DNA of 32,000 bases from Candidatus Saccharimonadota bacterium (lineage in GTDB: Bacteria > Patescibacteriota > Gracilibacteria > BD1-5 > UBA2023), in the NCBI GenBank assembly GCA_963706795.1, contig OY970170.1, positions 390,001-422,000 on the forward strand. Reading direction: 5' to 3'. The position numbers were made by a program, and so were the translations under genes. Under the pieces are notes generated by a model. The model saw only the letters and a program-made list of their open reading frames with translations, was not told the DNA's origin and ran no database searches. Positions 538 through 27,873 of this stretch are shown here, one piece after another (positions within the stretch are counted from its first letter, which is position 1; each line of letters starts with the position of its first letter).

Positions 538-1401
538 CTATATTCGTGTCTTCATGAATTCCCTCAATTTAGGCCCCAGATCTTCTCTGGCAAGTGCATA
601 ATCAATCGTAGCCCTAAGAAATCCAAATTTATCACCCGTGTCATAGCGCATTCATTCGAGCTCAAGCCCGTAGATATCGCGATCTGCGAGCATGGCCATG
701 AAGGCATCCGCAAGGCGTTTTTCGTTGTCTTTACCACTTGACGCTTTTTCGATGTAATCAAAAATATCAGGAGTCAGAACGTATTTACCAATTACACCCA
801 GTCTCGAGCTTGTCTCGCTGGCTTTTGGTTTTTCAAGGAAGTGATCTACCTTATGGGCGCGTCATTCGGATGTTGTTGATTCGATGATTCCATAGCTCGA
901 AACCTGATCATCAGTCACTCGCTCGAGCGCTATAATTGGCGATTGTTTCTGATGAAAAGCCTCAATAAGTTGAGCAGCTCAAGGAACACTATGCGAGATG
1001 AGATCATCCCCAAAAAGCACCAAAAATGGCTCATTGCCAACAAAATGTCGTGCATACATAAGCGCATCCCCATCACCGCGAGGCAGGGGTTGGCGAACAT
1101 AGGCAATATTTGCAAGATTTGAAACCTTTTCGACTTCTGCCAACTCTTTAACTTTACCTTTTTCTACGAGCGTGTATTCGAGCTCAAATGATGTATCAAA
1201 GTGATCCTCAATGCTTCGCTTCCCGCGCCCTGTAACAATAACAATATCCGTAATACCCGAAGCAACAGCTTCTTCTACAAGATATTGGATTACCGGCTTA
1301 TCAACAATCGGCAGCATTTCTTTTGGCTGAGCCTTGGTAGCAGGCAAAAATCGTGTCCCGAACCCTGCGGCTGGGATGATGCATTTGGTGATTGGTTTCA
1401 T
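538..1401 (-). CDS. galU: UTP--glucose-1-phosphate uridylyltransferase
   Basis: N-terminus is [31 protein letters not shown]. Track ORF 979..1401 continues in frame through TGA at 979, 862 and 652 to TAG 538-540 (287 aa). LE[G][11 protein letters not shown] matches the conserved EGxRYDxGxKxG block of GalU/GtaB. Confidence 0.9.
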
Positions 1402-1434: not shown

Positions 1435-1908
1435 TTATCCAAGCTTCTTCTTATTTTGCTTTCGGTGGCAAATATAGAGAGTGCGATAGACATAAGTAGT
1501 CGACGCTAAAAGTAGCAATACACCAATTGTTCGAACTTCATAGCCAAAAAATGGCAAACTCGACATGAGCGAAGACAGTCCTAGATATGTCGCAATAGTA
1601 ACACTACATGCAGGACAACCAGTCACCAAAATTGAGAAAAAAGACCCTAAAATTCCTGCTCAATCTTTTTTTTCGAATCGAGTAAAATGGATAATTTTAT
1701 AGGTCGAGAGCCCAAAAAATATTGGCGCAAAAATCAGCGTCAGCACACTTAAAAAAATCTCATAGTAATAAGCAAAAGAGCCAAGATTACCAAGAGTAAG
1801 CGCGAAGTCAGAAAAAGTGTATTCGATATATCCAAACACCACGAGCATCAGAAGAGTCGGAATGACGAACGCTCGAGAGCGCAGAATACGAGAGAGATTA
1901 TTCGTCAT
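1435..1908 (-). CDS. small polytopic membrane protein with an intramembrane C-P-x-C motif
   Basis: Likely start is ATG 1906-1908 (MTNNLSRIL...). Track ORFs 1660..1977 and 1435..1629 join in frame across TGA 1660-1662. There are about 4 hydrophobic segments and LVTGCPACSV lies inside one. It overlaps the upstream gene by 11 nt. Confidence 0.6.
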
Positions 1909-2524
1909 GACCACCACAGGCTGCAGGATCTGGAAGACTATTCTGCTCATGTGCCGAAGATGGAACCATAGCAGCACGTGCTATTACCGCATCATTTGTC
2001 GCGTTTGAATAATCTATCAAGAGACGATCTTCGGATCGAATTTGAAGATTTTGAGGATTTTGAATGAACTTGCCATTGAGTACAAATCGCAGCTTTTTCT
2101 GAGCATCACTACGATACATTTTACCCGCATTATCCACAATATAATCGGCTCCAAAATTCCAACGTAAATTGCTCATGAGGTGACCCCATGCAGCGCCCGC
2201 ATCATGAACATGAAGCAGTCCGCCTTTGTTTTCATGGAGATGCACTCGATCCTGTGGGGTTTCTTTGTTAGGATCGACTGCACAACTAGCGAGTTCTTCC
2301 ATGTACTGATCACCATCAAAATTCACAAAGTCCTTATCAAGGAAGACGAGGAAATTAGCATGGTAATGGACTTTTGCCGTCGATCCAGAAGCAGAATGCG
2401 AATGTTCAGGAATGACAGAAGTCTGGGTTTTGTACCAAACGAGTGCCGAAATAACGAGAATGATATCAAGAATGATAAAGCAAGCAATAACGAGCTTGAT
2501 GCGAGATGGAGGAGTTGTAATCAT
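1898..2524 (-). CDS. membrane-anchored protein with histidine clusters, function unknown
   Basis: Intact track ORF of 208 aa. It has an N-terminal TM (IKLVIACFIILDIILVISALVWY), then HSHSASGSTAKVHYHANF and VHLHENKGGLLHVHDAG. I cannot name the family with certainty. Confidence 0.65.
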   Translation of the reverse strand: MITTPPSRIKLVIACFIILDIILVISALVWYKTQTSVIPEHSHSASGSTAKVHYHANFLVFLDKDFVNFDGDQYMEELASCAVDPNKETPQDRVHLHENKGGLLHVHDAGAAWGHLMSNLRWNFGADYIVDNAGKMYRSDAQKKLRFVLNGKFIQNPQNLQIRSEDRLLIDYSNATNDAVIARAAMVPSSAHEQNSLPDPAACGGHDE

Positions 2525-2533
2525 GCCCCCATA

Positions 2534-4684
2534 CTACGAAGCAAATCAGGCATCGCAAGTAGAATTACGCCTTCTCCCAACAAAATATCCACCCATTCAG
2601 ACTACAATAGCTAAAACTCACGCTGCGGCAGCTCGTCCAGCATTCGAAACTGCTCATGAATCTTGAGAGTTTTGAGCTTTATTTGAGGTAGTAGGCACAA
2701 TTTTTGAAGGAACTTTTTGTCTTGCAAGCAGCTTTGGTTTTTTGGCTGTGGCAACCTTTTTGGATTTCTTTTTAGTAGAGATCTTCGCCTTTTTAGAAGT
2801 CGTAAGTTTAGATTTTTTAGAAGTTGAAAGTCATTTTTCGGATTTTTCTGCTTTGGAAACCTTGCTCACCTTTGGATCTTTTTTTGTCTTTTTAGAAGTT
2901 TTTGCTCATGCCTCACCTGCAAAAAACTCAGATGACAAAAGCGCTGTACGTGAGGCTACAATTGGCTCAATAAAGCGATTTACTCACTGAAATACACGAT
3001 CAATAGGTTCTGGAATAATGCTCATGACTGATATTTTTGCCGTACGAGCGATCTCGGATTTTGAGGATTTCTTGGGAGCAGCTTCCGCGCTGCTTGCTAC
3101 AGATTTGGCGCGAATGGTAATAGTCCTCGCAATAACATTTTCGGGCTTTCCGTCTTCGGAGAGATTGAGTGTCACTTGATGATCACCTTCTGCAAATTCG
3201 ACAGAGCGCGGATTGCAACTGGTGAGACTTTTTTCATCGGTACTTCATCATTCGAATATCCAACTGCATCGCTCGTAGGCAAATTTTGGTATAAAAATAA
3301 AATTGACCCGACATGGACTCGAACGACACACAAGATCATCCGAAAGTCATGATTGTGCTGAAAAAATAGGATCTGAGAGCGATCTCGATGGGCCAAAATA
3401 GATTGTAGAAGAGGATGTTACTACACTCGATCCTCCGGATGCTGGGGCTGTTGGTGGCGCTATATAGGCAGTATTTTCAATAAACTCAGATGAGTAGGCA
3501 TGGAAGGATTTGGTGTAGGTAAGTGCTTCTGCATCTTTACCATTGAGATCCTTGAGCCCGAATCCTGAATACGTCTTGAGACGAATATGACTGCTTGTAG
3601 AAGTATTAATGTGGAGATCAAGATGCTCAATATCTCACTCAATAAGATCAATAATGAGTTCAGAGCCGGAAAGTGTAAGTGACTCGATAGCTCCTGTTGA
3701 GCTCTCAATTTTCGTACTCGCGAGACCACCAGTTCAAGAATACAAAACGATCTTACTTGCGTCGAGACTTCCTGTAAGTATGGCAGAATACTCGATAGTT
3801 AACCGATCGATTTTCCCATTGTCATCAGTGTCTTCAAGGATGAGTTTTTGGGCTTCGGTCGGAATAATAGATCCGGAATTTTGGATCACTGGAGGAATAG
3901 ACGATACGGAACCCGAGGAGATAGATGGCCCAGTCGACGAAATATTTGAGGATGGAAGTGTGCTGCCGGTTTGAGTGATGTTCACGCTTCACGTTGAGGA
4001 TTGAGATGCTCAAGTTGCAGTAACCCCTAGATCGGTAGCTCATGTCTGAGAGCTACCTCCATCCGTGAGTGATCAAGAAGCCGTCGAAAGGACAGCGCCA
4101 GTTGCATTTCAAGCGACACTACCCGTAGATGCAATAGATCAGGTGGATTCGAGGAGCGAACCGGAATTATTTTGGATAGGAACCACTGCTCAAGTATTTG
4201 AAGTCACTCATCCTGTCGAAGAGGTCGGTGGAGTGTCTATGCTTCCCGTCGCTGTGGGTATCGCAGGAACTGGTGGAATTTCAGGAATCGTTACGCATTG
4301 TGGAAGCACGTAGTGACCCGTCGAGAGCGATATATCTTTGGCACTTGTGGCATATGAGAACTGATCAATCAAAGCACCAGAGGCATCAAGGAGATCAATA
4401 CGTTCATCGGTATTATTGAGAATAATTTTTGATTCTGGTCGCATAACTCGCCGACGTTGTCATGAAGAAAGTGTACCAGAAAGCAAATAGGTCTTACCCG
4501 AAGCATCTCGAAGGATGTATCCTGTAATATCCATATCAAAACAGGTGATATCTGCAATCTCTATATATTCGAGATTAGCATCATCACTGGTATTGGGCAG
4601 GACTGCATCAATCACAATACCCGAAGTTGCAAACACCGTCAGTCCTCACAAGAGAAACAAGACAACAAAAAGCCAGCTTTTCAT
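2534..4684 (-). CDS. secreted lamin-tail-domain (LTD) surface protein with S/T/G-rich linker, beta-rich middle, Lys-rich tail and C-terminal TM anchor (716 aa)
   Basis: I translated the whole minus frame codon by codon. There is no TAA/TAG between ATG 4682-4684 and TAG 2534-2536, and 22 in-frame TGA. Signal peptide: MKSWLFVVLFLLGGLTVFA. LTD-like block: IVIDAVLPNTSDDANLEYIEIADIT...ILNNTDERIDLLDASGALIDQFSYA. C-terminus: AGRAAAAGVLAIVVGMGGYFVGRRRN. Track ORFs 4208..4444, 3734..3985 and 2984..3175 are fragments of it. An alternative ATG lies at 4688-4690. Confidence 0.8.
2740..2910 (-). repeat. coding low-complexity Lys/Ser/Thr repeat inside the LTD protein gene
   Basis: The + strand shows reiterated TTTTTAGAAG(T)-type units. 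The minus-frame translation is KTSKKTKKDPKVSKVSKAEKSEK[G]LSTSKKSKLTTSKKAKISTKKKSKK. Confidence 0.6.
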
Positions 4685-4739
4685 GTGCATTTTGTACACG
4701 CGAAAAGCTGGAAAAAAACGGAAAAGCGAGAGAAATTTA

Positions 4740-6683
4740 TTACACTGTTGCCTTCTTTGGGACTGCAATACCCTCAAAGAATGCATCAAATTCAGTTGCG
4801 AGGAGTTCTTCTTTTTGAAGAAGGACTTCGGCTACTGTTTGATGGATAGCATGGTACTCAGTAAGCACGACTCGAGCTCGCTCATAGGCGGAGAGTAGTA
4901 TAGCACGAACCTTTTCATCGATCTTTTCTTGAGTTTTGTCAGAGAAGATTTTTCCTCCTCCTTCACCGCCAAGATAGTTGCCTTCGATAGCGTCAGATGC
5001 GAAGTTTTCAGGTCCGAGTTCATCATCAAATCCATAGCGCATCACCATCGCACGAGCAATTTCAGTGGCATGCTCGATATCACTCGACGCACCTGTTGTA
5101 ATAAGGTCCTTACCAAAAAAGATTTCTTCAGCAACGCGTCCACCGTAGAGCGTAGCAAGCTCATCGAGGTATTTTGCTTTGGTGATATATGTACGGTCTT
5201 TTTCTGGGAGGAACCAAGTTACTCAACCAGCCCCACCACGTGGAATAATCGAGATTTTATGAACCGGATCATTATATGGAAGCATCTTTCCTACGATTGC
5301 GTGTCCGACTTCATGATAGGCAGTGATTTTTTTCTCGAGTTCGGTCATGCGGGACGATTTTTTTGTATTCCCCATGAGGACTTTTTCGATCGACTGCTGG
5401 ATCATTGCCTGTGAGAGCTCTTTTTGACCCATACGACCCGCGAGAATCGCTGATTCATTGAGGAGATTACCCAAATCAGCACCTGAGAATCCAATCGTTG
5501 ATGCGGCAATTTTTCGGAAATCTACATCCTTCGCCATAGGCTTCCCCTTAGCATGAACCTCAAGAATCTTGATACGGTCCTCAAGATTTGGGAGATTGAT
5601 CGTCACCTTGCGGTCAAATCGGCCTGGTCTCAGAAGTGCCTTATCTAGAACATCGGCACGATTGGTCGCTGCGAGGACGATCACGCTGGTCTCATTGTCG
5701 AATCCATCCATTTCTGTAAGGATCTGATTGAGTGTCTGCTCGCGTTCGTCATGACCTCCACCAATTCCAGGCGAACGCTTTTTACCAATGGCATCGATTT
5801 CGTCGATAAAGATGATCGAAGGCGAACGTTCCTTTGCTTCTTTGAAGAGATCTCGTACACGAGAAGCTCCTACTCCAACAAACATTTCTACAAATTCGGA
5901 ACCCGAAATTGAGAAAAATGGGACGTTAGATTCTCCAGCAACAGCACGAGCCAGAAGGGTTTTACCCGTTCCTGGAGGTCCAACCATGAGGATACCACGA
6001 GGGATTTTCGCTCAAAGATCCTTAAATTTCTTTGGATTTTTGAGGAAGTCGACAACTTCGGCGAGGTCTTCTTTTTCTTCTACTGATCCAGCAACATCGC
6101 CAAAAGTCACGCGGTCCTTACCTGGCTCATAGATGCGAGCTCGAGATTTAATAAATGCCATCGGTCCACCTCCACCACCACTCATACGAGAGACAACGAA
6201 GACAATCAACACCACAAATATGATCGTCATGACCACGCTCGGAAGCGAATCTACAAGGAATTTACCCCAAAAATCATCCTTCACACTGATCTTGGTAGGA
6301 TTTTTGATATCCGAAAACCCAAGATCCTTAAGGCTGTCCTTTGGAGGCAAGAGAATCTTGTCGACATCAACAACGCTTACGGTTTTTGCACCGATATTTT
6401 CGGTATGTGCGGGCTTTTTAGCATAGAGCGTATTCCCCTCTACAACGAGCTCCTGGTAAGAGCCGGAAAGATAATTAGTAACGACTTGGTTGATACCAAT
6501 TTTATCGTTGATATTCTCTTTTTGGCCACCGGCAAAATTTAAAAAAATTGCCGAAAGAACGATTGCTACCGCAAAAAGCACAAAGAGCGGATGAAGCTTT
6601 TTAGGTTTTTTGGGAGATTTTGTAGTGGCCTTCTTGATCATATCCATCATTTCTTCTTTGGATTTTTTAGGTTTTTTCGTCAT
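4740..6683 (-). CDS. ftsH: ATP-dependent zinc metalloprotease FtsH
   Basis: Track ORFs 6012..6683, 5223..5987 and 4740..5048 share one frame. Motifs: Walker A GPPGTGKT, Walker [33 protein letters not shown], zinc site HEVGHAIVG. The joins are TGA 6012 (FKDL[G]AKIPRG) and TGA 5223 (IIPRGGAG[G]VTWFLPE), both at Gly positions conserved in FtsH. Product is 647 aa. Confidence 0.95.
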
Positions 6684-8084: not shown

Positions 8085-8105
8085 TCCGATCGGACTATTT
8101 TTTTG
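8074..8105. terminator. bidirectional intrinsic terminator between convergent genes
   Basis: AAAAAAA-TAGTCC-GATC-GGACTA-TTTTTTT. It overlaps the stop codons of the 7287 gene and of der. Confidence 0.7.
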
Positions 8106-9585
8106 TTTTCTTCCTGCGAACCCCCTTACTAAATGTGCGACGATTACTCACTTGATCGTCTTCAGCGTGGAAAGTTTTGGCGATTTTTTCGATATATTCT
8201 GGATCTTCAGCCTTGAGACCTCCACCCTTCTTAAAGATACTTTCGCGTCCCTTGAGCTCTATGATGACCGGTGTTCCAGAGAATCCAAAGTATTCTCGGA
8301 TCTGGTTCTCGATATAGCGTGGATATGAGAAGTGGAAGTGCTTTTCGTTATTTACCGAAATGAGGAATTTTGGCGGATTCACATCAACCTGAGAACCGTA
8401 GAAGATTTTTGGCTTATGTGACTTTTTATTACCCGTTGGTGGATGCTTGAATGCTATCTGTTCGAGGAAATTATTAAAGACTCCTGTCTTCACTCGCTTC
8501 ATTCGTTCATCACGGATAGTGACTGCGAGATCGAGGATTTCATCGATACGTTTCCCATCAATCGCGCTTGAGAAAATCGGCGTAACGTAGGAGATGAACT
8601 CAAATTTACGACGGAGATATCCGAGATATTCTTCTTTGATCGTTTCGGCATCAACGTCCTTGCGTGCAAGAACCTTATCCCACTTATTAAAGACGAGAAC
8701 GAGACCCTTTGAGGATTCGAGAGCCTTTCCGACGATGGATTGGTCCTGGGAAGTAATTCCTTCACTCGCGTCGAGTACAATGACCGCAACATCGGCACGT
8801 TCGATAGCTCGCTCGCTGCGCATTACGCTCCAGTCTTCGATATTTCGTGCACCAATCTTACCAGAGCGGCGGATACCAGCGGTGTCAATGAGGACGATTT
8901 TTTCTTCTTTGTAATCAAAGATTGAGTCGATGGAGTCTCGTGTTGTTCCAGGCATATCTCGAACCATGGCGCGATTTTCACCGGTAATAGCATTTACGAG
9001 CGACGACTTACCAACATTCGGTCGACCAATGATCGCGATCTTAAGGAAGTCTTCGTCATATTTTGGCTCATTGTAGTTGTAGCCTTCCGCCTTGAGAATG
9101 CGAGCAAATGTCTCAGAGAGATCATAAATACCACGAGAATGCAGCGAACTCGTAGGCACTAACTCAGGGAATCCGAGTGAAAGAAGTGCTTGTGCCTCAC
9201 GAACACGATCAGCATTGTCTGCCTTATTTGCAGCGATGACGATTTTTTTACCAGAACGGCGAAGCATCTTGGCGATTTCTTCGTCATAGGTTGTGATCTT
9301 GTCGTATTCGAGTACGAAGAGGATGATATCCGAACGATCAATCGACTCAGCAACACGCTTACGGACGTCAGTGAGGATTTCGTCATTGGTTCCAAACGAA
9401 AGTCCTCCACAGTCAGCGATGATGTAGGTGAGATGTTCTTCTTCGTCGTGGATTTGGTACTCGAGAACGTCTCGAGTGGTGTTCTCAATATCCGAAACAA
9501 TCGCGATCTTGTGACCCGTGAGGGCATTAAAGATACTTGATTTCCCGACATTGGGACGTCCTACGATGGTGATTCTTGCGATCAT
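8095..9585 (-). CDS. der: ribosome-associated GTPase Der (EngA)
   Basis: Intact 496-aa ORF with two G domains (GRPNVGKSSIFN and GRPNVGKSSLVN, each followed by DTAG/NKxD-type motifs) and a basic C-terminal tail. No in-frame TGA. Confidence 0.93.
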   Translation of the reverse strand: MIARITIVGRPNVGKSSIFNALTGHKIAIVSDIENTTRDVLEYQIHDEEEHLTYIIADCGGLSFGTNDEILTDVRKRVAESIDRSDIILFVLEYDKITTYDEEIAKMLRRSGKKIVIAANKADNADRVREAQALLSLGFPELVPTSSLHSRGIYDLSETFARILKAEGYNYNEPKYDEDFLKIAIIGRPNVGKSSLVNAITGENRAMVRDMPGTTRDSIDSIFDYKEEKIVLIDTAGIRRSGKIGARNIEDWSVMRSERAIERADVAVIVLDASEGITSQDQSIVGKALESSKGLVLVFNKWDKVLARKDVDAETIKEEYLGYLRRKFEFISYVTPIFSSAIDGKRIDEILDLAVTIRDERMKRVKTGVFNNFLEQIAFKHPPTGNKKSHKPKIFYGSQVDVNPPKFLISVNNEKHFHFSYPRYIENQIREYFGFSGTPVIIELKGRESIFKKGGGLKAEDPEYIEKIAKTFHAEDDQVSNRRTFSKGVRRKKTKK

Positions 9586-11080: not shown

Positions 11081-11476
11081 CTAGCGTGCGAGTTCGCGAT
11101 CGAAGACAACTGTAAGATACGGATTGCAATACGGATCCTTGAGTACCGCACTCACTGCTGCTGAGAGCTGCATTTCCTCGGTTTTGAGGACGGGGATATA
11201 CGTATATCCCCCATTTCGAAATGTAAAAATTCGATCGATCGACACATAGTCTACGACTCGTGAAATCTGCTCATCTGTGAGATAGCTCGCCCGAGTGAGG
11301 TGATATGCACCACGCACAAGATAACTGCGGCCACGGTATGTAAATTTGAGAGCAAATTTCGATGCCTCAATCAGACTAGAAGCCGGCTGAAAAACTGCCT
11401 TGGTACTGTGTCTGACTGCTTCGGGACGGGCTGGACGCGCTGGAGCATCGAGATCGAGGATGAGTTGATCGGTCAT
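11081..11476 (-). CDS. hypothetical protein (131 aa)
   Basis: Intact track ORF (MTDQLILDLDAPARPARPEAV...). No motif recognised. Confidence 0.6.
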   Translation of the reverse strand: MTDQLILDLDAPARPARPEAVRHSTKAVFQPASSLIEASKFALKFTYRGRSYLVRGAYHLTRASYLTDEQISRVVDYVSIDRIFTFRNGGYTYIPVLKTEEMQLSAAVSAVLKDPYCNPYLTVVFDRELAR

Positions 11477-11609
11477 ATGAATTTTTGTTTACAGGGTAAT
11501 CGTCTCACATATAGAGACGATGTCAAGAGTAAATTGTGACAATATTATATCTACGAGAGCTTAAGTAATCTTCAAAGATGCAGGGTTCGAACTATGGGCG
11601 TGCATAAAA

Positions 11610-11639
11610 TTGACAAGAAGGACTCATTTGAGGTACCAT
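11610..11639 (+). promoter_or_regulatory. candidate promoter giving a leaderless mRNA for the 11646 gene
   Basis: TTGACA (11610-11615), an 18-nt spacer, then TACCAT (11634-11639). ATG 11646 lies 7 nt after the -10 element. Confidence 0.35.
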
Positions 11640-11645
11640 AACCGC

Positions 11646-11912
11646 ATGATTGATCCTCAAACACTTCTCGCCCTCAGCCAAGAAATCGTCGATGCTCTCG
11701 AGCTCGATGTTTCAGCACGCGAGGGCATTGCCGCAGAACTTGCGACATGCACCAACGAAGAGCTCATGTATGTAGCTGAATCCCTCAGCACATATTACAA
11801 CCACGTAACGCTTACGGCTAATAGCGTATCGAGTCAGTTTTTGTCTGATAAAAACGAAGCTCTCGAAAACAACGAACGTGCCGATGTTTCAAATAGTCTT
11901 TTATTTTTGTAG
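11646..11912 (+). CDS. hypothetical acidic helical protein (88 aa)
   Basis: Same frame as track ORF 11610..11912. I prefer ATG 11646 (MIDPQTLLAL...) because the track's TTG start is the putative -35 hexamer. Confidence 0.55.
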   Translation: MIDPQTLLALSQEIVDALELDVSAREGIAAELATCTNEELMYVAESLSTYYNHVTLTANSVSSQFLSDKNEALENNERADVSNSLLFL

Positions 11913-11913
11913 T

Positions 11914-12372
11914 ATGGAACTTTTAAAATTCAATCGCGAAGCGCAAAAAATAGAATGTACGCCCGAAGGCGTAGCAGATGCTGTTGCACAACTCGGTGGC
12001 CCAGCCCAGGAAGCAAAAAATGCGCTTGCGAATTGCAATGCAAATATTCAAAAACAGACCGAAGGAATGCGCGTCGGAAATGCTGAATATCGCGGTATTT
12101 TAGACCGAAGACTCCAAGGAAATCAAACAGAACTCGCAGGACTCTTAGGACTCAACTCAGTCAAGGCTGCACTCGATAAAAAGGAATTCGCTGGCGCAAT
12201 GACTCGCGTCTGAAATGAAGCCACAGCAAATGTTGCTGCCGAAAAAGTACGTGATCTCAAACATCAGCAAGAACGTGTAGCTGCGGCAAAAGCAGGAATA
12301 GCCCAACAAACAGCAGATAACGCAGATGCCACTAAAATCAGCAAGGATTTCCAATATATCAAAATACGCTAA
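11914..12372 (+). CDS. hypothetical helical protein (152 aa)
   Basis: ATG 11914 (MELLKFNREAQK...) is 1 nt after the upstream stop. The frame reads through TGA 12211-12213 to TAA 12370-12372. Confidence 0.6.
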
Positions 12373-12408
12373 TATAGGAGGGCTTAGTTATTTGCGACCG
12401 ATCTTTCC

Positions 12409-13101
12409 ATGACTCCTGAACTCTTCGATGCACATCAAGAAACCCCTAAAACCACTTCCGAAACGAGCGGTATTCAGGGGCTTCTTATTAAATATAGATA
12501 CGCCGTACATGCATTGTTATGAGGTGGGGCAATAGTACTATGATTCTGAGCCGGAAATTTAGCTGCGGAATACTCTGCAAAGCACCATGAGGAGCAACGA
12601 TTTTGGCAACAGCAAGTACAAAATGCAGCAATGCTCGAAGAGCTCAAAACTCTGATGATCGAATCCTCTCTGCAGTGAGATAGTGATAATAAGGGAATTC
12701 TCTGAGCGATCGCCTTCAAGCAAAAAGCAGCGGACGCCAAGAAAATTGAAGAAACACTTAAGCGAGCACATGAGCTTGAAAAAATCGTTATAGCCGCTGT
12801 TTGACCAGATGGAGATTATTCCAAGGCAGCCTTCAGGGATTTTAGTTTTCCAGCAGAAAACATAAATACTACGAGCGAAACAGCAAAAGCCGCTGCTGAA
12901 AAAGCAAAAACCGCGATGCTTGAGCTCTACAATCTCAGAAATGCGCATACCAAAGCTCTTACATCTGACATGATAGCAAAGCAAGGAAGCTCATTTATCA
13001 TAGATTTTTGAGCAGACAAAGAGGAAGACCAATACTACATCAAGAGAATATATCTCAGCCCGCCTGATAAAGAGCAGTCGGCAAAAACAAGTAACGGGTA
13101 A
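12409..13101 (+). CDS. hypothetical single-pass membrane / coiled-coil protein (230 aa); not in the ORF track
   Basis: Translated codon by codon from ATG 12409 to TAA 13099-13101, with 7 in-frame TGA and no TAA/TAG. The TM segment is HALL[G]GGAIVL[G]F[G]AGNLAA. The rest is charged and helical. Confidence 0.65.
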
Positions 13102-13122
13102 TTATTTAGACACTGCGTATTC

Positions 13123-13155
13123 AAAAAAACTTCCATATAAACTGGAAGTTTTTTT
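13123..13155. terminator. bidirectional-type intrinsic terminator
   Basis: AAAAAAA-CTTCCA-TATAAAC-TGGAAG-TTTTTTT, directly after the 12409 gene. Confidence 0.7.
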
Positions 13156-13227
13156 GATAGATCGCATTTTTGGCTTTCGCCTTTGTAAAAAACTCGTATA
13201 AATAGCATCGTTTCTCTCAATCATCGC

Positions 13228-14013
13228 ATGAATCCAACACCAAATACCCAAGAACTTCTCGCAGAAATCGAAATCCTCAAGCGCAAGCTCGCTTCTTCTG
13301 CTGCATGGATGCGCCGAGAGGTCGAAGAAAATGTCCACAAGATTGCCAAGCGCAAGGTCACCAAAATGACCGAATCTGGCAAAGAAGATTTCCTCCGTGA
13401 AAACCAAGAAGAAATCATTGCGAACCGCATTCGTGGATATTTTGGGGATATTTTGCTTATGAATGCACCCAAGAATCTCCTCGAATACCTCATCGACTCT
13501 GAGATCAGCTACTATCACCTCTCTCGCAATCCGAACGGAGATGGTTTTTCGGTGGCGAGCTCATATAACAAGATTCTTGACGGACTGATCGAATCTCAGA
13601 TTACTTCTCAGTTCCGCAAATTTGTTCTCAAAAAAGGTCCTGTTATCCTCAGAACAAACGATCCACTCGAAAAAGCGCTTCATCTCGTAATTACCAAAAA
13701 ATACATCCTCTCAACGGGTCGACTTTTTGGGCTCATGCGAGCACTGAAGGGTCGCGAAAAGCTCTACGAATTTGCGACTTCGTTCCAAGAATATCTCGAA
13801 AAATACAACGAACTCAGAACACTCCTTATGAGTGATAATTTTTATATGCCCTATTGCACCCTCATCGAGAGTGACATCTTTGGTGGGAAGCGCCATGCCG
13901 GACGACTCAGCTTTGAAGAAACTGAAAAAGCCCGTCAGATATTGACTGGAGGCTACCAGAATACCAACGGACTTATTCATCAGTTACTCACTTACGCGAG
14001 TGTTCTCTACTAA
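13228..14013 (+). CDS. hypothetical protein (261 aa)
   Basis: Intact track ORF with no TGA. No family recognised. Confidence 0.7.
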   Translation: MNPTPNTQELLAEIEILKRKLASSAAWMRREVEENVHKIAKRKVTKMTESGKEDFLRENQEEIIANRIRGYFGDILLMNAPKNLLEYLIDSEISYYHLSRNPNGDGFSVASSYNKILDGLIESQITSQFRKFVLKKGPVILRTNDPLEKALHLVITKKYILSTGRLFGLMRALKGREKLYEFATSFQEYLEKYNELRTLLMSDNFYMPYCTLIESDIFGGKRHAGRLSFEETEKARQILTGGYQNTNGLIHQLLTYASVLY

Positions 14014-14162
14014 AGAAGCTCTTTGAGTTCTTCTAGTTCTGTTGGCGTAAAATAGAGAAGAAGTTTTAAAAACTGTTCTTTTTCTTCGATGGTGAGCGAG
14101 GTTGAAAGTTTGATCTTTTCGGAGATTGGGACTTCAACAAGTACCCCAGAAATATGAGCCAT
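14010..14162 (-). CDS. possible small protein (50 aa)
   Basis: ATG 14160-14162 to TAG 14010-12: MAHISGVLVEVPISEKIKLSTSLTIEEKEQFLKLLLYFTPTELEELKELL. It is below the track's size cutoff. Its stop overlaps the stop of the convergent 13228 gene. Confidence 0.3.
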   Translation of the reverse strand: MAHISGVLVEVPISEKIKLSTSLTIEEKEQFLKLLLYFTPTELEELKELL

Positions 14163-14208
14163 TAGGTTGTTCGATTGGATAAATATATTTAAACATTAAA
14201 TAGGTTAT

Positions 14209-14688
14209 ATGTCAATAATTCTCGGAATCGACCCTGGGACAACCACTGTAGGATTCTGAGTACTGGAAGTTGTGGGCAATAAACGAAATATTCTCAACTT
14301 TGGAGTTATTCACACCACTCCCAAGCTCGATGCTCATCTCAAACTTCTTGATATTGAGCGCGATCTGAGCGAGCTCATAGAGATGTACAAACCAAGCGCT
14401 TGTGGGATCGAAAAACTCTTCTTTTTTAAAAATCAAAAGACCGTTATTGATGTGGCGCAAAGCCGTGGTGTACTCATCCATACCATCGCCAAACACGGAA
14501 TCCCAATCTACGAATACACTCCCCTGCAAGTCAAAAAAGGCATCTGTGGAAATGGTGTCGCTACAAAACTCCAGGTCCAAAACGCACTCAAAATCCTCTT
14601 TGGACTGAATGAAATCCCAAAGCCCGATGACGCTGCTGATGCACTCGCTATCGCCTATATCACGAGCCTCGCTCGCCCAAAAATGTAA
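14209..14688 (+). CDS. ruvC: crossover junction endodeoxyribonuclease RuvC
   Basis: Track ORF 14272..14688 extends upstream through TGA 14257-14259 to ATG 14209: MSIILGIDPGTTTVGF[G]VLE, the conserved RuvC N-terminus with its catalytic Asp. The C-terminal part has DDAADALAIAY. Confidence 0.9.
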
Positions 14689-14689
14689 T

Positions 14690-14718
14690 AAAAAAAGCGC
14701 TCCTGAGAGCGCTTTTTA
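14690..14718. terminator. bidirectional intrinsic terminator
   Basis: AAAAAAA-GCGCTC-CTGA-GAGCGC-TTTTT, between convergent ruvC and the 14741 gene. Confidence 0.75.
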
Positions 14719-14740
14719 GTGATGTGTTCCAATCCGAGAA

Positions 14741-15073
14741 CTACTTGTGTTTACGGATAGGAATCACGTTGTTCAATTTTTTTCCTTCAGCTACTTTTGT
14801 TTGAAGAACATGCTGATCATTGGAAGCTTCATGATGTGTCCAAGCGGCTTCCCAGACGATATTGCGTTTCATCGTCCAGACCCAATACATGACTGCGATA
14901 ATAACAATGAGAACGATGCAGATGAGTACAAGAGCCCCGAATACATCATATTTCCCAACGCCATACCAGATGGACCATGAGCATGTGAGTGCTATAAGCC
15001 CTAATCCAATCAGACACCACCGAAAAAGTTTTTTGAGTGATGCCTCACGGGCTGTACAGAATACTTCTACCAT
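14741..15073 (-). CDS. small two-TM membrane protein (110 aa)
   Basis: Intact track ORF with two long hydrophobic segments, ending ...IPIRKHK. Confidence 0.6.
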   Translation of the reverse strand: MVEVFCTAREASLKKLFRWCLIGLGLIALTCSWSIWYGVGKYDVFGALVLICIVLIVIIAVMYWVWTMKRNIVWEAAWTHHEASNDQHVLQTKVAEGKKLNNVIPIRKHK

Positions 15074-15082
15074 CTATTACTC

Positions 15083-15403
15083 CTATTTGTGTTTACGACT
15101 GTAGTCGTAGGCGAAACGTTGTTGTTCATAATGCATCCATTTCCGGAATCGTAGACTGATCCAGACACAGAGAGCGGCGATCACAATGGCGCAGAGTACG
15201 CCTATGCGAATGTCAGCGATGCCGACATATCGTATAATTGTGAATATCAGAGCTACAACGCTCCACACCAGCACAATACGTGCAATTTCCGGATGTTTGG
15301 CTGCAATCCGGAGAATTTTTTGCTCTCCAGAAACGAGCAAGGTACGAAATATATTCATTTTGGTCTCCTCACCGCTTCTGCGGCTTTTGTTTTCTCTGTT
15401 CAA
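15083..15403 (-). CDS. small two-TM membrane protein (106 aa or shorter)
   Basis: Intact track ORF ending ...YSRKHK. An internal ATG (MNIFRTLL...) is an alternative start. Confidence 0.55.
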   Translation of the reverse strand: MNRENKSRRSGEETKMNIFRTLLVSGEQKILRIAAKHPEIARIVLVWSVVALIFTIIRYVGIADIRIGVLCAIVIAALCVWISLRFRKWMHYEQQRFAYDYSRKHK

Positions 15404-15481: not shown

Positions 15482-15509
15482 TTGATGAACGAAAGTTTTT
15501 GATTACAAT
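15482..15509 (+). promoter_or_regulatory. candidate promoter for alaS
   Basis: TTGATG (15482-15487), a 16-nt spacer, then TACAAT (15504-15509). This argues against the track's TTG 15499 and ATG 15508 as start codons. Confidence 0.4.
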
Positions 15510-15537
15510 GCCACTTCGATTCTTAAAAGCACAGTTC

Positions 15538-17517
15538 ATGCGCATCATTTCATCTGACATCCGAAACAAATATCTTGAGTTTTACAAGGCTCAGGGGCAC
15601 GCCATTATCCCATCGGCGCCACTCGTTCCTGAGAATGATCCTACAACTCTCTTCACCGGATCTGGTATGCAGCCAATGCTTCCCTATCTTTTGGGTGAAC
15701 GTCATCCGCTTGGTAAGCGTATTGCTGACTCACAGAAATGTTTCCGTGCCGTTGATATGGAAGAAGTTGGTGATAATCGCCACACGACATTTTTTGAAAT
15801 GCTCGGAAACTGGTCGCTTGGTGACTATTTTAAAAATGAGCAGATTCACTGGATGTGGGATTTCCTCGTCGGAGAACTCGGTCTCGATCCAAAGAAGCTC
15901 TATTTTACATGCCACAATGGCTCTGCTGCCGCTGGTATCGAACGTGATGACACTGCAGCGAATCTCTGGATAGAACTCTACAAAAGTGTAGGGATCGATG
16001 CAAAAACTGCAGATAATGCAGCTAAAGAAGGTATGAAGCCAGGCGAGCGAATCTTCTTTTATGAAGACAAGAAAAACTGGTGGTCACGCGCAGGAGTTCC
16101 TGCAAATATGCCAGCCGGAGAACCTGGAGGACCTGACTCAGAAATGTTTTGGGACTTTGATCCAACTGGAGAAAAAGCACTTCACGAAAACTCTCCATGG
16201 AAGGACCAGCCATGTCACGTGAATTGTGACTGTGGGCGCTTCCTCGAGATCGGAAACAACGTCTTTATGGCATACATGAAGGAAAAGGATGGCACATTTA
16301 GTGAGCTCGCTGGCAAAAATATCGACTTTGGAGGTGGACTTGAGCGTATTGCAATGGCACTTGCGGATTCACCAGATATTTTCCAGACTGGGATTTTTGA
16401 TCTCATCCGCGAAAAACTCGAATCTGTGAGTCACAAGACCTACGGTACAAATTCTGATGAAACTCAGGCATTCCGTATTATTATGGATCACATCCGTGCA
16501 GCGACATTTCTCATCGGAGATGATGTTGTACCATCTAATGTAGATGCTGGATATTTCGTACGTCGACTTATTCGTCGCGCAGTTCGAGCGGGACGCAAAC
16601 TTGCGATCAGTGAACATTTTTGTGGAGAAGTCGCAAAGGGTGTTATCGACACCTACAAAGATGCATATACCAATCTCGAGGCAAAACGCGAAAATATTCT
16701 CCGTGTTCTCTCAGAGGAAGAAGAAAAATTCCAAAAAACGCTCGAGCGTGGTGAGCGTGAAATCGAAAAGATCCTCGCTTCTGGAGAAAAAATCGATGGA
16801 AAGAAGGCATTCTGGCTCTTTGAAACATACGGATTCCCCCGCGAAATGACGGAGGAAATCATTCTTGAGCACCTCATGGCACAATACGATCTCGGAATTG
16901 CCGCAAACGTAGAAATCATGCGCGAGAAACTCTTTGCAGTTAATACTGGGCTCGCAGACGAAATGAAGGCATTCGCAAGCGCATTCGACACTGCTTCACT
17001 CGAACATGCTGAACTCTCACGAACGGCTGCAGCCGGTAAATTCAAGGGAGGACTTGCAGATCAATCCGAGGAAACTACGGCGCTACATACCGCTTGTCAC
17101 CTCATGCTCGCAGGACTTCGTAAAGTCCTCGGAGCACACGTTCACCAAGCAGGATCAAACATCACTGCTGAACGCCTCAGATTCGACTTCACACATCCCG
17201 AAAAAGTTACTCCAGAACAGCTCACAGCCATCGAAGATTTCGTCAATAAGGCTATCGACTCTGGACTGAGTGTTTCGATCAGCGAGGAAGACAAAGAAGC
17301 TGCAAAATCCCGCGGTGTCGAAGGTGCATTTTGGGAAAAATATCCTGAAGTCGTTACGGTCTACAAGATGCAAGGAGGCGATGGAGTTGTCTACTCCGAA
17401 GAACTCTGTGGCGGTCCACATGTAGAAACTTCTATCACCATGGGCCACTTCAAGATCCAAAAAGAAGAATCCTCAAGCGCTGGAGTACGACGCATTAAGG
17501 CGATTTTGACGAAGTAA
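15538..17517 (+). CDS. alaS: alanine--tRNA ligase, short form ending after the editing domain
   Basis: Begins MRIISSDIRNKYLEFYKAQGHAIIPSAPLVP. Motifs: FTGSGMQP, HTTFFEMLGNWSLGDYFK, editing-domain HTACH and CGGPHV. The ORF ends 30 aa after CGGPHV. No in-frame TGA. Confidence 0.9.
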   Translation: MRIISSDIRNKYLEFYKAQGHAIIPSAPLVPENDPTTLFTGSGMQPMLPYLLGERHPLGKRIADSQKCFRAVDMEEVGDNRHTTFFEMLGNWSLGDYFKNEQIHWMWDFLVGELGLDPKKLYFTCHNGSAAAGIERDDTAANLWIELYKSVGIDAKTADNAAKEGMKPGERIFFYEDKKNWWSRAGVPANMPAGEPGGPDSEMFWDFDPTGEKALHENSPWKDQPCHVNCDCGRFLEIGNNVFMAYMKEKDGTFSELAGKNIDFGGGLERIAMALADSPDIFQTGIFDLIREKLESVSHKTYGTNSDETQAFRIIMDHIRAATFLIGDDVVPSNVDAGYFVRRLIRRAVRAGRKLAISEHFCGEVAKGVIDTYKDAYTNLEAKRENILRVLSEEEEKFQKTLERGEREIEKILASGEKIDGKKAFWLFETYGFPREMTEEIILEHLMAQYDLGIAANVEIMREKLFAVNTGLADEMKAFASAFDTASLEHAELSRTAAAGKFKGGLADQSEETTALHTACHLMLAGLRKVLGAHVHQAGSNITAERLRFDFTHPEKVTPEQLTAIEDFVNKAIDSGLSVSISEEDKEAAKSRGVEGAFWEKYPEVVTVYKMQGGDGVVYSEELCGGPHVETSITMGHFKIQKEESSSAGVRRIKAILTK

Positions 17518-17571: not shown

Positions 17572-18747
17572 TTACACCGTATAACTCACACTCTTTTCTT
17601 CCCTAGATTTTTGCTGGAAGGATTTCGTACCAGCAATGAGTCCAAATGATAAAAATGAGAGAAGTGCTGAAAGCTCGTATAGGACAGGTATTCTGTAAAA
17701 TGGTCGAGTCTTAATAGTCGCCATTCAGAGAGCAATTGGCAGGAGCGCAATAGTAAGGATTGGATCAAAAAAGCCATAAAAATATGCTGCAACTGCCACC
17801 AAAATAGTGAGCACCATTCCCTGTCCGATAGCGAGCACATAGGGACTTTTGCCAGGCACAAAGAATCGAACGATATAAATAAGATTGATGAATGGCACAT
17901 AAATCAGATACGGCGAGAATGGCCCCGTAGGTCCATCAAAAAAGGCTACGAGCTGTGCTTCTGTCGCATTATCCAACTGCTCTCGCTCGATGAGTCGTGC
18001 ATGAAAATTGAGATGGTCCTTTTTGCCAACAACTGCTGACATCACATCTCTCAAATAGATCGGAATCGTACGCATAACTCTCGCAATTCATTCAAGTGAA
18101 GGAATCCAGTAAAAAAACGAGAGAAATTCTACGCTCTTCCCCAAAAACAAGAGACTTGCGACACTCACCAAGAGTACAACAAAAAAGAAGAGAATCGAGA
18201 GAATCGTACTCTCACCTCTCGAAAACACAAAGAGAAATACGAGTAAAATACTCATCAGGCCAGAGATTCGAACCCCTACTCGTGTAAGTGGAGTCTGGAG
18301 ATGTTCATAGATGAACGGGCCGATAAATGGCACAAATGAGAGAATACTTCGGATCATTTCAGATTCGTTTTGGACGTACACTCCATTGAGACTCTCAGAA
18401 GTCAGTCCAAGATCAAACGAAAATATTCCCGTCGAGTCTCTACCAGCAAAGGCTCGAGATGCCCCGATGAACAACAAGGTGAAGATGTATGCAAAAACCA
18501 TGATGATCAAGATTCGATCAATCCGGATTGGTAAAAATGGCAGTGTGATAGCCAGGAGTCTGGACAAAAATATCTGGTGCAAAAAGATATATCCTATGAA
18601 CAAGAGATGCAACTTGGTCGCCGACTTTGCGTGAGAGCGAACAAATGGCTCAGAAAAATTGGGGTTTTTTCGTGCCAGCAAGAAGAGAAAACCGAGAAAA
18701 AAGTAGCTGATTGCCGCATTTGTGCGGACTTTTTGTGAAATTTCCAT
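17572..18747 (-). CDS. polytopic membrane protein (391 aa), N-terminal DUF4870-like segment
   Basis: Track ORFs 18088..18747 and 17725..18075 share a frame. TGA 18088 and TGA 17725 are read through to TAA 17572-17574. The N-terminus NAAISYFFLGFLFLLARKN...FVRSHAKSA resembles the DUF4870-type pattern from memory. Confidence 0.65.
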
Positions 18748-25484: not shown

Positions 25485-25510
25485 AAAAAAGAGCCCGAAG
25501 GCTCTTTTTA
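25485..25510. terminator. intrinsic terminator downstream of lysS
   Basis: AAAAAA-GAGCC-CGAA-GGCTC-TTTTT. The lysS TAA (25508-25510) abuts it. Confidence 0.7.
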
Positions 25511-27073: not shown

Positions 27074-27107
27074 TTGTCGCTTTGATACGGGTAAAAAACG
27101 AGTTTTC

Positions 27108-27135
27108 ATCGTAGCAAATCGCGGGCGAAAGTCAA
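27108..27135 (-). promoter_or_regulatory. candidate promoter for lysS
   Basis: The minus strand reads TTGACT (27135-27130), a 16-nt spacer, then TACGAT (27113-27108). This argues against the longer track start at 27172. Confidence 0.4.
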
Positions 27136-27865: not shown

Positions 27866-27873
27866 AAAAATTC

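What the first reader, a model, noticed from the sequence alone, without database searches (positions are those of the whole stretch)
2534..4684. 716-aa LTD-domain surface protein hidden by 22 in-frame TGA codons
The track shows only three short fragments plus antisense noise here. One minus-strand frame is free of TAA/TAG for 2151 nt. It encodes, in order: a signal peptide, a lamin-tail-domain-like beta sandwich, a ~130-aa S/T/G-rich linker, repeats such as LILEDTDDNGKIDRLTIEYSAILTG and ...VTLNLSEDGKPENVIARTITIRA, a Lys-rich tail, and a C-terminal TM helix followed by RRR. It is the largest non-housekeeping gene in the window. It sits directly downstream of ftsH and upstream of two small membrane/metal-motif genes. 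In an epibiotic or predatory CPR cell such a protein is a plausible adhesin or envelope component. Its function is unknown.
Basis: partly seen in the sequence, partly recalled or inferred. Interest (0 to 1): 0.7.

Follow-up and report, generated by a model that had tools for sequence, protein, structure and literature searches.

The report
Recoded lamin-tail-domain cell-surface protein gene
This is a real 716-residue gene in a bacterium that reads TGA as glycine; it encodes a membrane-anchored surface protein built from known binding-type modules plus one uncatalogued module, and it is interesting for these bacteria but not a new kind of system.

Summary
The minus-strand frame 4684..2534 has 22 in-frame TGA, no TAA/TAG, and ends in TAG. 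Chance is excluded (P about 1e-13; shuffles reach at most 360 open codons, against 766 here).

TGA means glycine. It sits at conserved Gly positions of the neighbouring FtsH. In 11 orthologues, 31.5% of residues aligned to the window's TGA codons are Gly or TGA, against a 4% background, and none is Trp.

The anatomy, in order:
- a signal peptide;
- a Pfam lamin tail domain (LTD) at residues 19-112 (39.7 bits, cut-off 34.3);
- a disordered Ser/Thr/Gly spacer of about 150 residues;
- a confidently modelled Ig-like beta-sandwich with a DxDxNGxID loop and no Pfam or PDB relative;
- a divergent, disulfide-bearing PKD domain;
- a Lys-rich segment (net +23);
- a C-terminal transmembrane (TM) helix followed by RRR.

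No catalytic domain was found. Orthologues with intact frames sit after ftsH in Gracilibacteria-type genomes. More distant relatives carry a second LTD plus a staphylococcal-type nuclease.

My best reading is a fast-evolving, non-catalytic surface tether or adhesin. Its ligand is unknown. I rate it a new member of a known kind, of moderate to low interest.

The parts
2534..4684 (-). Whole coding sequence: 716 codons plus the TAG stop at 2534-2536. It contains 22 TGA codons read as Gly. An alternative ATG lies at 4690.
   Evidence: full-length orthologous frames
4628..4684 (-). Signal peptide, residues 1-19 (MKSW + hydrophobic core + VFA|TS). The cleavage site is inferred by the -3/-1 rule.
   Evidence: Hydropathy. 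An equivalent N-terminus ending AFA/AYA/ASA occurs in the orthologues. No SignalP was available, so the cleavage site is an inference.
4349..4630 (-). Lamin tail domain (LTD, PF00932), residues 19-112. It is acidic (pI 4.4) and has conserved Cys48 and Cys130.
   Evidence: Pfam 39.7 bits against a cut-off of 34.3. In the AlphaFold model of orthologue P0001 this domain has pLDDT >90. That model matches lamin Ig-fold structures at probability 1.0, TM about 0.55-0.60. 76% identical to L008. Charge.
3845..4294 (-). Ser/Thr/Gly-rich acidic spacer, residues 131-280, with degenerate (S/N/Q)-T-G motifs. It holds 8 of the 22 TGA codons and is predicted disordered.
   Evidence: Sequence. pLDDT <50 for the equivalent stretch of P0001. 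Only 35% identical to L008 and variable in length. pI 4.1. No tandem DNA repeat.
3470..3844 (-). Family-specific Ig-like beta-sandwich, residues 281-405, with a conserved DxDxNGxID (calcium-loop-like) motif and an SSHLRLK strand. It belongs to no catalogued family.
   Evidence: Found in 72 protein clusters. Model of the P0001 copy: pLDDT 93.8, pTM 0.87. No significant PDB or viral structural match: best E 7e-3, TM 0.3-0.5. No Pfam family and no PDB sequence hit. 66% identical to L008.
3041..3370 (-). Divergent PKD-like domain, residues 439-548 (QSGL..C..C.VNF..CxW.F.GG..CNP), with four conserved cysteines.
   Evidence: The family profile hits the PKD domains of collagenase ColH and other PKD structures (E 1.8e-7 for the whole chain). 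5 of 19 aligned copies hit Pfam PKD_4. The window-type HMM matches P0003 residues 421-509, a protein that carries a precomputed PKD_4 (PF18911) hit. The window copy itself is below Pfam detection. The Cys columns are shown.
2657..3040 (-). Membrane-proximal basic segment, residues 549-676 (net +23, pI 10.6). The Lys-rich core is residues 593-665 (window 2690-2908).
   Evidence: Composition and charge. A basic tail of net +14 to +28 is present in the close orthologues (L013: +7), although sequence identity there is only 13-32%.
2576..2635 (-). C-terminal transmembrane helix, residues 684-703.
   Evidence: Hydropathy. An equivalent helix followed by basic residues occurs in the orthologues.
2537..2575 (-). 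Short cytoplasmic tail, residues 704-716, beginning with RRR.
   Evidence: Sequence. RRR/RRK/RTRK occur at the same place in orthologues.
4740..6683 (-). ftsH, directly upstream on the same strand with a 55-nt gap. It has two TGA codons at conserved Gly positions, which calibrates the genetic code.
   Evidence: The ftsH -> LTD gene order is conserved in L001, L008, L010, L011 and L013.
1898..2524 (-). Downstream 208-aa gene, starting 10 nt after the stop. It has an N-terminal TM helix and His-rich motifs. Function unknown.
   Evidence: No Pfam, NCBIfam or PDB match. 67% identical copy at the same position in L008.
1435..1950 (-). Downstream 171-aa multi-pass membrane protein with a GCPAC motif. 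Function unknown.
   Evidence: Conserved immediately after the LTD gene in L008, L009, L010 and L012. Only 6 homologues in the large protein collection, none with a Pfam domain.

Best explanation
Shown:
- The locus is a genuine gene of a Gracilibacteria-type (Patescibacteria/CPR) genome that decodes UGA as glycine.
- Its product has a signal peptide and a single C-terminal TM helix followed by RRR, which predicts a type-I membrane protein.
- Everything between those two elements is therefore predicted to lie outside the cell. Conserved cysteine pairs in the LTD and the PKD-like domain fit that location.
- No catalytic domain was detected.

Inferred mechanism:
- The Lys-rich, strongly basic segment next to the membrane lies in or passes through the anionic envelope.
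- The PKD-like and Ig-like beta-sandwiches, together with a spacer of about 150 disordered Ser/Thr/Gly-rich residues, act as a stalk.
- The acidic N-terminal LTD is held at the far end as a binding head.
- The protein would thus work as a non-enzymatic tether or adhesin, binding a ligand on a host cell or an extracellular polymer. That suits an organism dependent on other cells.

The ligand is not identified. Relatives use the same head and anchor to carry a second LTD plus a staphylococcal-type nuclease. The family therefore looks like a modular surface scaffold, and this gene is its cargo-less version.
For: Gene and genetic code:
- 22 TGA, no TAA/TAG, chance excluded.
- TGA aligns with Gly in FtsH.
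- 31.5% of orthologue residues at the window's TGA columns are Gly or TGA, against a 4% background, with no Trp.
- Conserved sequence continues across the TGA codons in every orthologue.

Topology:
- Only two hydrophobic segments, at the N- and C-termini.
- Six conserved cysteines.

Domains:
- LTD above the Pfam cut-off, with a lamin-like fold in the orthologue model.
- Ig-like sandwich modelled at pLDDT 93.8.
- PKD profile match.
- No enzyme domain in Pfam, NCBIfam or PDB sequence searches.

Charge polarity:
- Acidic head and spacer and a basic membrane-proximal tail occur in the close orthologues.

Surface-protein style of evolution:
- The protein is 43% identical to L008, while Der is 92.5% and FtsH 81% identical.
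- Folded domains are 66-76% identical. Spacer and tail are 29-35%.

Modular family:
- Of 55 relatives scanned, LTD is found in 37, PKD in 16 and SNase in 3.
- L019, L022 and P0012 carry a second LTD plus an SNase with an intact RLIGIDTPE motif.
Against: - Nothing here shows binding to anything.
- No expression data were found. The supplements of the one Gracilibacteria metaproteome paper I checked contain no LTD term.
- In ExeM and Xds, the two LTD proteins studied by experiment, the LTD was dispensable for nuclease activity. In Xds it was also dispensable for membrane localisation. What a bacterial LTD does is therefore unknown.
- Signal-peptide cleavage and topology rest on hydropathy and sequence rules, not on a dedicated predictor.
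- The structural models are of orthologue P0001, not of the window protein.
Confidence: 0.6

Rival explanations
1. Nucleic-acid capture. The protein holds extracellular or host DNA/RNA at the cell surface, through the polycationic Lys-rich segment, the LTD, or both. Nucleases, type IV pili and ComEC would then take it up, feeding an organism that cannot make nucleotides.
For: - Distant family members carry a second LTD plus SNase on the same head-and-anchor scaffold.
- Characterised or discussed LTD proteins are extracellular nucleases or DNA-metabolism proteins: ExeM, Xds, Hvo_1477 and an Izemoplasmatales locus.
- The tail resembles histone-H1-type Lys/Ala/Pro tracts, especially in L001.
- DNA uptake via ComEC, ComEA and pili has been proposed for related predators.
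Against: - The LTD, spacer and Ig-like domain are all acidic (pI 4.1-4.5), which does not favour DNA binding.
- The basic tract is the membrane-proximal part, where a wall-spanning role is equally likely.
- The LTD is dispensable for DNA degradation in ExeM and Xds.
- There is no nuclease, OB fold or HhH domain in this protein or elsewhere in the window.
- In L021 the SNase motif has decayed, so nuclease cargo is not essential to the scaffold.
Confidence: 0.2
2. Structural envelope component. The protein is a spacer or fibril of the cell surface (a wall-spanning, S-layer-like coat) with no specific ligand.
For: - Domain set typical of coat proteins: Ig-like, PKD and low-complexity Ser/Thr-rich stretches.
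- A weak structural resemblance of the middle domain to SbsA-type Ig-like domains.
- A fibrous surface is described for the related Vampirococcus.
- A galU-like gene lies in the same-strand run.
Against: - The N-terminal LTD is the best-conserved part (76% identity to L008; motif LPNTxDDANLEYIE in all 16 loci). That points to a specific function at the distal tip rather than a passive spacer.
- It is a single-copy gene with no self-assembly domain detected.
Confidence: 0.15
3. Not a gene. TGA is a stop codon here, and the region holds only short fragments, a pseudogene or noise.
For: Under table 11 only ORFs of 89 aa or less exist in this frame. The exact full-length translations are absent from a collection of 15 billion proteins.
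Against: - An open frame of this length free of TAA/TAG has P = 1.4e-13.
- Pfam LTD hit.
- Amino-acid conservation continues across every TGA in 11 orthologues from genomes of 33-56% G+C.
- TGA lies at conserved Gly positions of FtsH.
Confidence: 0.01

Closest known systems
ExeM (Shewanella oneidensis) and Xds (Vibrio cholerae), extracellular nucleases
   Same: Signal peptide, then an N-terminal lamin tail domain, long unstructured linkers, and a C-terminal hydrophobic anchor followed by a cluster of basic residues. Both remain associated with the cell.
   Different: ExeM and Xds carry OB-fold and EEP nuclease domains, which are essential for their activity. The window protein has none. It has instead an uncatalogued Ig-like sandwich, a PKD-like domain and a polycationic tail. 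No GlyGly-CTERM model matched.
LTD + thermonuclease proteins such as Haloferax volcanii Hvo_1477 (extracellular DNA metabolism)
   Same: The LTD-plus-SNase combination occurs in distant members of this same family (L019, L022, P0012, P0003). Hvo_1477 is described.
   Different: The window protein and its close orthologues (L001, L008-L013) lack the second LTD and the SNase domain.
Eukaryotic nuclear lamin tail (Ig-fold) domain, Pfam PF00932
   Same: Sequence-profile membership. A similar beta-sandwich fold in the orthologue model, matching 2lll, 3jt0 and 1ifr.
   Different: Here the domain is extracellular, at the N-terminus of a secreted and anchored protein, with a conserved cysteine pair. 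Identity to lamins is only 10-16%.
PKD domains of secreted or surface proteins (for example collagenase ColH; Methanosarcina surface-layer protein 1L0Q)
   Same: The family profile aligns to the W-D-F-G..NP..Y..G.Y.V.L core of solved PKD domains.
   Different: The window copy is too divergent for Pfam to detect. It also has an added N-terminal QSGL..C..C segment and four conserved cysteines.
Gram-positive wall-anchored adhesins (LPXTG / MSCRAMM type); comparison from general knowledge
   Same: Overall logic: signal peptide, distal binding domain, Ig-like stalk modules, a charged wall-spanning region, a C-terminal hydrophobic helix and a positively charged tail.
   Different: No LPXTG motif precedes the helix (sequence), and no conserved motif is visible there among the orthologues. 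The helix is most simply read as a permanent membrane anchor.

Membership tests
Genetic code 25 (UGA = Gly; Gracilibacteria / Absconditabacteria) | In-frame TGA at positions where homologues have glycine, not tryptophan or a chain end | tested here: met
   FtsH has LgAKIPRG and GAGgVTWFLPE where the L001 copy has G. 31.5% of residues aligned to the 22 TGA columns are Gly or TGA, against a 4% background, with 0 Trp.
Lamin tail domain (Pfam PF00932) | Profile score above the curated gathering threshold | tested here: met
   39.7 bits against 34.3, residues 19-112, profile positions 4-108 of 109.
Lamin tail domain (Pfam PF00932) | Ig-like beta-sandwich fold resembling the lamin globular tail | tested here: met
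   Tested on orthologue P0001, which is 49% identical in this domain. pLDDT >90. Foldseek hits to lamin A/C, B1 and B2 tails with probability 1.0, E 4e-4 to 3e-3, TM 0.55-0.60.
PKD domain (PF00801 / PF18911) | Pfam profile match of the window sequence itself | tested here: not met
   No PKD hit at E up to 1 for the whole protein or for the isolated domain (member 1).
PKD domain (PF00801 / PF18911) | Homology to PKD domains shown through the family profile | tested here: met
   Profile A4 hits ColH and other solved PKD domains (E 1.8e-7 to 0.1). 5 of 19 aligned copies hit PKD_4, best 1.9e-10. The window-type HMM matches P0003 residues 421-509 (2.6e-8), and P0003 carries a precomputed PKD_4 hit.
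ExeM/Xds-type LTD nucleases | OB-fold and EEP nuclease domains | tested here: not met
   No such Pfam or NCBIfam hits.
LTD + SNase surface nucleases (Hvo_1477-like; L019/L022/P0012) | Staphylococcal nuclease domain with catalytic R..D-T-P-E motif | tested here: not met
   No SNase in the protein or anywhere in the window's six-frame code-25 translation. It is present in distant relatives.
Sortase / exosortase / rhombosortase C-terminal sorting signals (LPXTG, PEP-CTERM, GlyGly-CTERM) | Signature motif immediately before the C-terminal helix | tested here: not met
   No NCBIfam CTERM model at E up to 1. No LPXTG, PEP or leading GG motif before residues 684-703, and no conserved motif among the orthologues. 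Short-motif models are insensitive, so a new signal type is not excluded.
Secreted type-I membrane protein | Cleavable N-terminal signal peptide plus a single C-terminal TM helix | tested here: inconclusive
   Hydropathy shows exactly these two segments, and a VFA|T site fits the -3/-1 rule. No SignalP, TMHMM or experiment was available.

The most novel reading that the evidence does not exclude
The conserved block ftsH - LTD protein - CPAC membrane protein could be a lineage-specific surface module of Gracilibacteria. In that reading, the LTD-headed scaffold is the cell's device for contacting prey or for DNA capture. The uncatalogued DxDxNGxID beta-sandwich would be a new calcium-dependent binding domain. 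The co-conserved 171-aa GCPAC membrane protein would be its dedicated partner, either for disulfide formation or for processing the C-terminal helix-plus-RRR signal.
Probability: 0.1. Interest if true: 0.55.

Novelty: new member of a known kind. Interest (0 to 1): 0.3.

Why it matters
Gracilibacteria and Absconditabacteria are tiny bacteria that depend on, or prey on, other cells. How they touch those cells and take material from them is largely unknown. This gene belongs to a family of surface proteins found in many genomes of that group (16 genomic loci; 72 protein clusters for the middle domain). The family is fragmented, or translated with TGA read as Trp, in standard protein collections.

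The gene is therefore a concrete, fast-evolving candidate for the cell-contact surface of these organisms. It also provides one well-folded domain with no catalogued relatives and a clean test case for UGA=Gly decoding. It does not reveal a new kind of mechanism.

Tried and rejected
I used orthologue P0001 and database proteins instead.
- PDB sequence searches found nothing for the whole protein or for a profile of the middle domain.
- Foldseek of the middle domain against PDB and BFVD gave only generic Ig-like hits. I therefore rejected any specific fold assignment, including an EF-hand or dockerin reading of the DxDxNG loop. The only Pfam EF-hand hits were one member each at E 0.06-0.09.
- NCBIfam gave nothing for the protein or its two downstream neighbours.
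- Promoter and terminator scans around the gene did not clearly exceed shuffle expectation, so operon structure is inferred from spacing only.
- Tandem Repeats Finder found no repeats in the spacer.
- An exact-sequence look-up of four full-length translations found none in the collection.
- A literature search for LTD together with Gracilibacteria returned nothing. The supplements of a Gracilibacteria metaproteome paper contained no LTD terms.
- Searches on the 171-aa and 208-aa neighbours gave no functional lead.
- TGA=Trp (code 4) is rejected: no Trp aligns at any TGA column.
- Database proteins such as P0002 and P0014 show W at the positions where their source loci (L002-L007, L014) have TGA. 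They were evidently translated with TGA as Trp.
Full report
OBSERVATION

The minus-strand frame from 4684 to 2534 translates into 717 codons. All 22 internal stops are TGA, and the frame ends in TAG. The stretch free of TAA/TAG extends to 4831, which is 766 codons. A second ATG lies two codons upstream of the proposed start.

This is not chance. From the window's base composition, 717 codons without TAA or TAG has probability 1.4e-13. In 200 shuffles the longest such run averaged 210 codons and never exceeded 360.

GENETIC CODE

The neighbouring ftsH (4740-6683, minus strand) has two in-frame TGA codons, in the conserved stretches LgAKIPRG and GAGgVTWFLPE. The FtsH of a related contig has GGN-encoded glycine at both positions.

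I aligned the protein with 11 orthologues. Of 184 residues opposite the window's 22 TGA codons, 58 (31.5%) are Gly or TGA. The background at non-Gly columns is 4%, and columns where the window uses GGN reach 59%. No aligned residue is Trp. At positions inside conserved folded domains (75, 446) or in recurrent spacer motifs (165, 225), most aligned residues are Gly or TGA.

So UGA is read as glycine (code 25). That places the window in the Gracilibacteria/Absconditabacteria part of the Patescibacteria. The related loci are labelled Gracilibacteria, Peribacteria or Patescibacteria MAGs.

ANATOMY

- Residues 1-19: a typical signal peptide, with a basic N-terminus, a hydrophobic core and VFA|TS. 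The only other hydrophobic segment is 684-703, followed by RRR.
- Residues 19-112: these match the Pfam lamin tail domain at 39.7 bits, above the 34.3 cut-off.
- Residues 131-280: an acidic Ser/Thr/Gly-rich spacer with degenerate (S/N/Q)-T-G motifs. It has no DNA tandem repeats. The equivalent part of the orthologue model has pLDDT below 50.
- Residues 281-405: a domain with a strictly conserved DxDxNGxID loop.
  - An exhaustive HMMER search with the orthologue's copy found 72 clusters.
  - AlphaFold models it as a beta-sandwich at pLDDT 93.8 and pTM 0.87.
  - It has no Pfam family, no PDB sequence relative and no significant structural neighbour. The best PDB hit is E 7e-3 with TM 0.3-0.4, to antibody V domains. 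The viral library gives weak hits to Ig-like and SbsA-type domains.
- Residues 439-548: a divergent PKD domain.
  - The window copy is invisible to Pfam.
  - A profile of 19 aligned copies hits the PKD domains of collagenase ColH and other solved PKD domains.
  - Five of the 19 copies hit Pfam PKD_4.
  - Four cysteines are conserved.
- Two further cysteines, Cys48 and Cys130, bracket the LTD and are conserved in the close orthologues.
- Residues 549-676: strongly basic (net +23, pI 10.6), with a Lys-rich core.
- No catalytic domain was detected by Pfam, NCBIfam or PDB sequence search.

They are not related to each other.

RELATIVES

A scan of species-representative genomes returned 16 loci. 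Fifteen come from apparent code-25 genomes of 22-56% G+C. Each has a long frame free of TAA/TAG with 4 to 49 in-frame TGA. Each frame starts with a signal peptide and an LTD bearing the motif LPNTxDDANLEYIE...ESKIILNNT, and ends in a Lys-rich stretch, a hydrophobic helix and basic residues.

The close group (L001, L008-L013) has the same five-part architecture as the window. The gene follows ftsH in L001, L008, L010, L011 and L013. The 171-aa GCPAC membrane protein follows it in L008, L009, L010 and L012.

The low-G+C members drop the Ig-like domain and multiply the PKD-like units. L019, L021 and L022 insert a second LTD plus a staphylococcal-nuclease domain. The catalytic motif is intact in L019 and L022 and decayed in L021. 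Of 55 family proteins scanned with Pfam, 37 hit LTD, 16 PKD_4, 8 PKD and 3 SNase.

EVOLUTIONARY BEHAVIOUR

Against the closest genome (L008), Der is 92.5% and FtsH 81% identical, but this protein only 43%. By region the identities are: LTD 76%, Ig-like domain 66%, PKD-like domain 45%, spacer 35%, basic tail 29%.

The charge pattern is kept in the close orthologues even where the sequence is not. The head, spacer and Ig-like domain are acidic (pI about 4.1-4.7 in most). The membrane-proximal tail is basic (net +14 to +28 in most close orthologues; +7 in L013). This is how exposed surface proteins usually evolve: constrained folds joined by free linkers.

HOW IT MOST LIKELY WORKS

Shown: the gene is real and is decoded with UGA=Gly. 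The product has the features of a secreted protein held in the membrane by one C-terminal helix. It is built of binding-type beta modules and has no recognisable enzyme.

Inferred: the basic tract sits in or crosses the anionic envelope. The PKD-like and Ig-like modules and the long flexible spacer form a stalk. The conserved acidic LTD is presented at the tip to bind something. I call this a non-catalytic tether or adhesin, with confidence about 0.6.

What it binds is open. The literature ties bacterial and archaeal LTDs to extracellular nucleases and DNA metabolism:
- ExeM, PMC6085458;
- Xds, PMC6746945;
- Hvo_1477, via PMC5118699;
- an Izemoplasmatales locus, PMC8289736.

Distant members of this family carry SNase, and related predators are thought to import host DNA (PMC8080830). 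That supports a nucleic-acid-capture variant (about 0.2). Three facts weaken it. The LTD, spacer and Ig-like domain are acidic. The LTD was dispensable for DNA degradation in both ExeM and Xds. The only basic part is the segment next to the membrane.

A purely structural coat role is possible (about 0.15). It does not explain why the distal LTD is the best-conserved part.

COMPARISON WITH KNOWN FAMILIES

The protein contains a Pfam LTD domain and, through family profiles, a PKD-superfamily domain. It is not a member of the ExeM/Xds or LTD-SNase nuclease families, because the nuclease domains were looked for and are absent.

It shares their outline: signal peptide, LTD, long linkers, and a C-terminal helix plus basic cluster. 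It resembles Gram-positive wall-anchored adhesins in logic, but it has no LPXTG or other recognised sorting motif.

NOVELTY AND VERDICT

LTD- and PKD-containing surface proteins are a known kind. 'Hidden by TGA' is the ordinary result of reading a code-25 genome with the standard code. The modestly new points are these:
- The architecture is a cargo-less LTD-headed scaffold with a polycationic base.
- The Ig-like domain has no catalogued relative.
- The position after ftsH is conserved.
- The full-length translations of this gene and three orthologues are absent from a 15-billion-protein collection.
- I found no paper linking LTD proteins to Gracilibacteria.

I rate it a new member of a known kind, with interest about 0.3.

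Noticed in passing
window 2534-4684 (-) compared with ftsH 4740-6683, der 8095-9585, alaS 15508-17517, fusA about 22507-24648, lysS 25508-27109; also L001, L008, L010, L013: TGA supplies 37% of the glycine codons in this gene. In the housekeeping genes of the window it supplies 0-6%, and in the CorC-like and M23 peptidase genes 13-14%. The same contrast between the LTD gene and ftsH/der holds in four related genomes. The reassigned codon seems to be avoided in conserved, presumably highly expressed genes and tolerated in fast-evolving surface proteins.
   Followed up: partly
window 1435-1950 (-): A 171-aa multi-pass membrane protein with a GCPAC motif sits immediately after the LTD gene in L008, L009, L010 and L012. 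It has only 6 homologues in 5.8 billion proteins and no Pfam, NCBIfam or PDB match. It could be a partner of the disulfide-rich, C-terminally anchored LTD protein, but nothing tested supports that yet.
   Followed up: partly
window 1898-2524 (-): A 208-aa protein starting 10 nt after the LTD gene's stop. It has an N-terminal TM helix and several His-rich motifs (HSHS, HYH, HLHE, HVHD). Among the fetched loci it was found only in L008 (67% identity). No family match.
   Followed up: partly
window 538-1401 (-); L001 5762-6652: A GalU-like nucleotidyl transferase closes the same-strand run ftsH - LTD gene - small membrane genes. A gene with the same N-terminal sequence lies downstream of the LTD gene in L001.
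   Followed up: no
L021 8001-10565; L019 and L022 for comparison: In L021 the staphylococcal-nuclease domain of the family member has lost its catalytic R..DTPE motif (LNFLgLNIYDNQE). L019, L022 and P0012 keep RLIGIDTPE / RLIGVDTPE. This suggests the scaffold persists after the nuclease decays.
   Followed up: no
window 27868-29853 (+): A secreted M23 peptidase (Pfam 95.7 bits) has a C-terminal extension of about 470 residues with no domain match and 8 in-frame TGA. It is the other large, TGA-rich, probably extracytoplasmic protein of the window.
   Followed up: no
window 11081-15358 and 17572-18747: A run of small ORFs and a 391-aa multi-pass membrane protein had no Pfam match among those tested. 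This is unannotatable content typical of CPR genomes.
   Followed up: no
L023 7653-9371: An apparently standard-code Patescibacteria locus carries an LTD with the same ESKIILNN motif. It is preceded by a helix-hairpin-helix-like segment (GIGEARLLDI, judged by eye as ComEA-like) and followed by a TM helix. This is a different architecture, and one plausibly DNA-binding.
   Followed up: no
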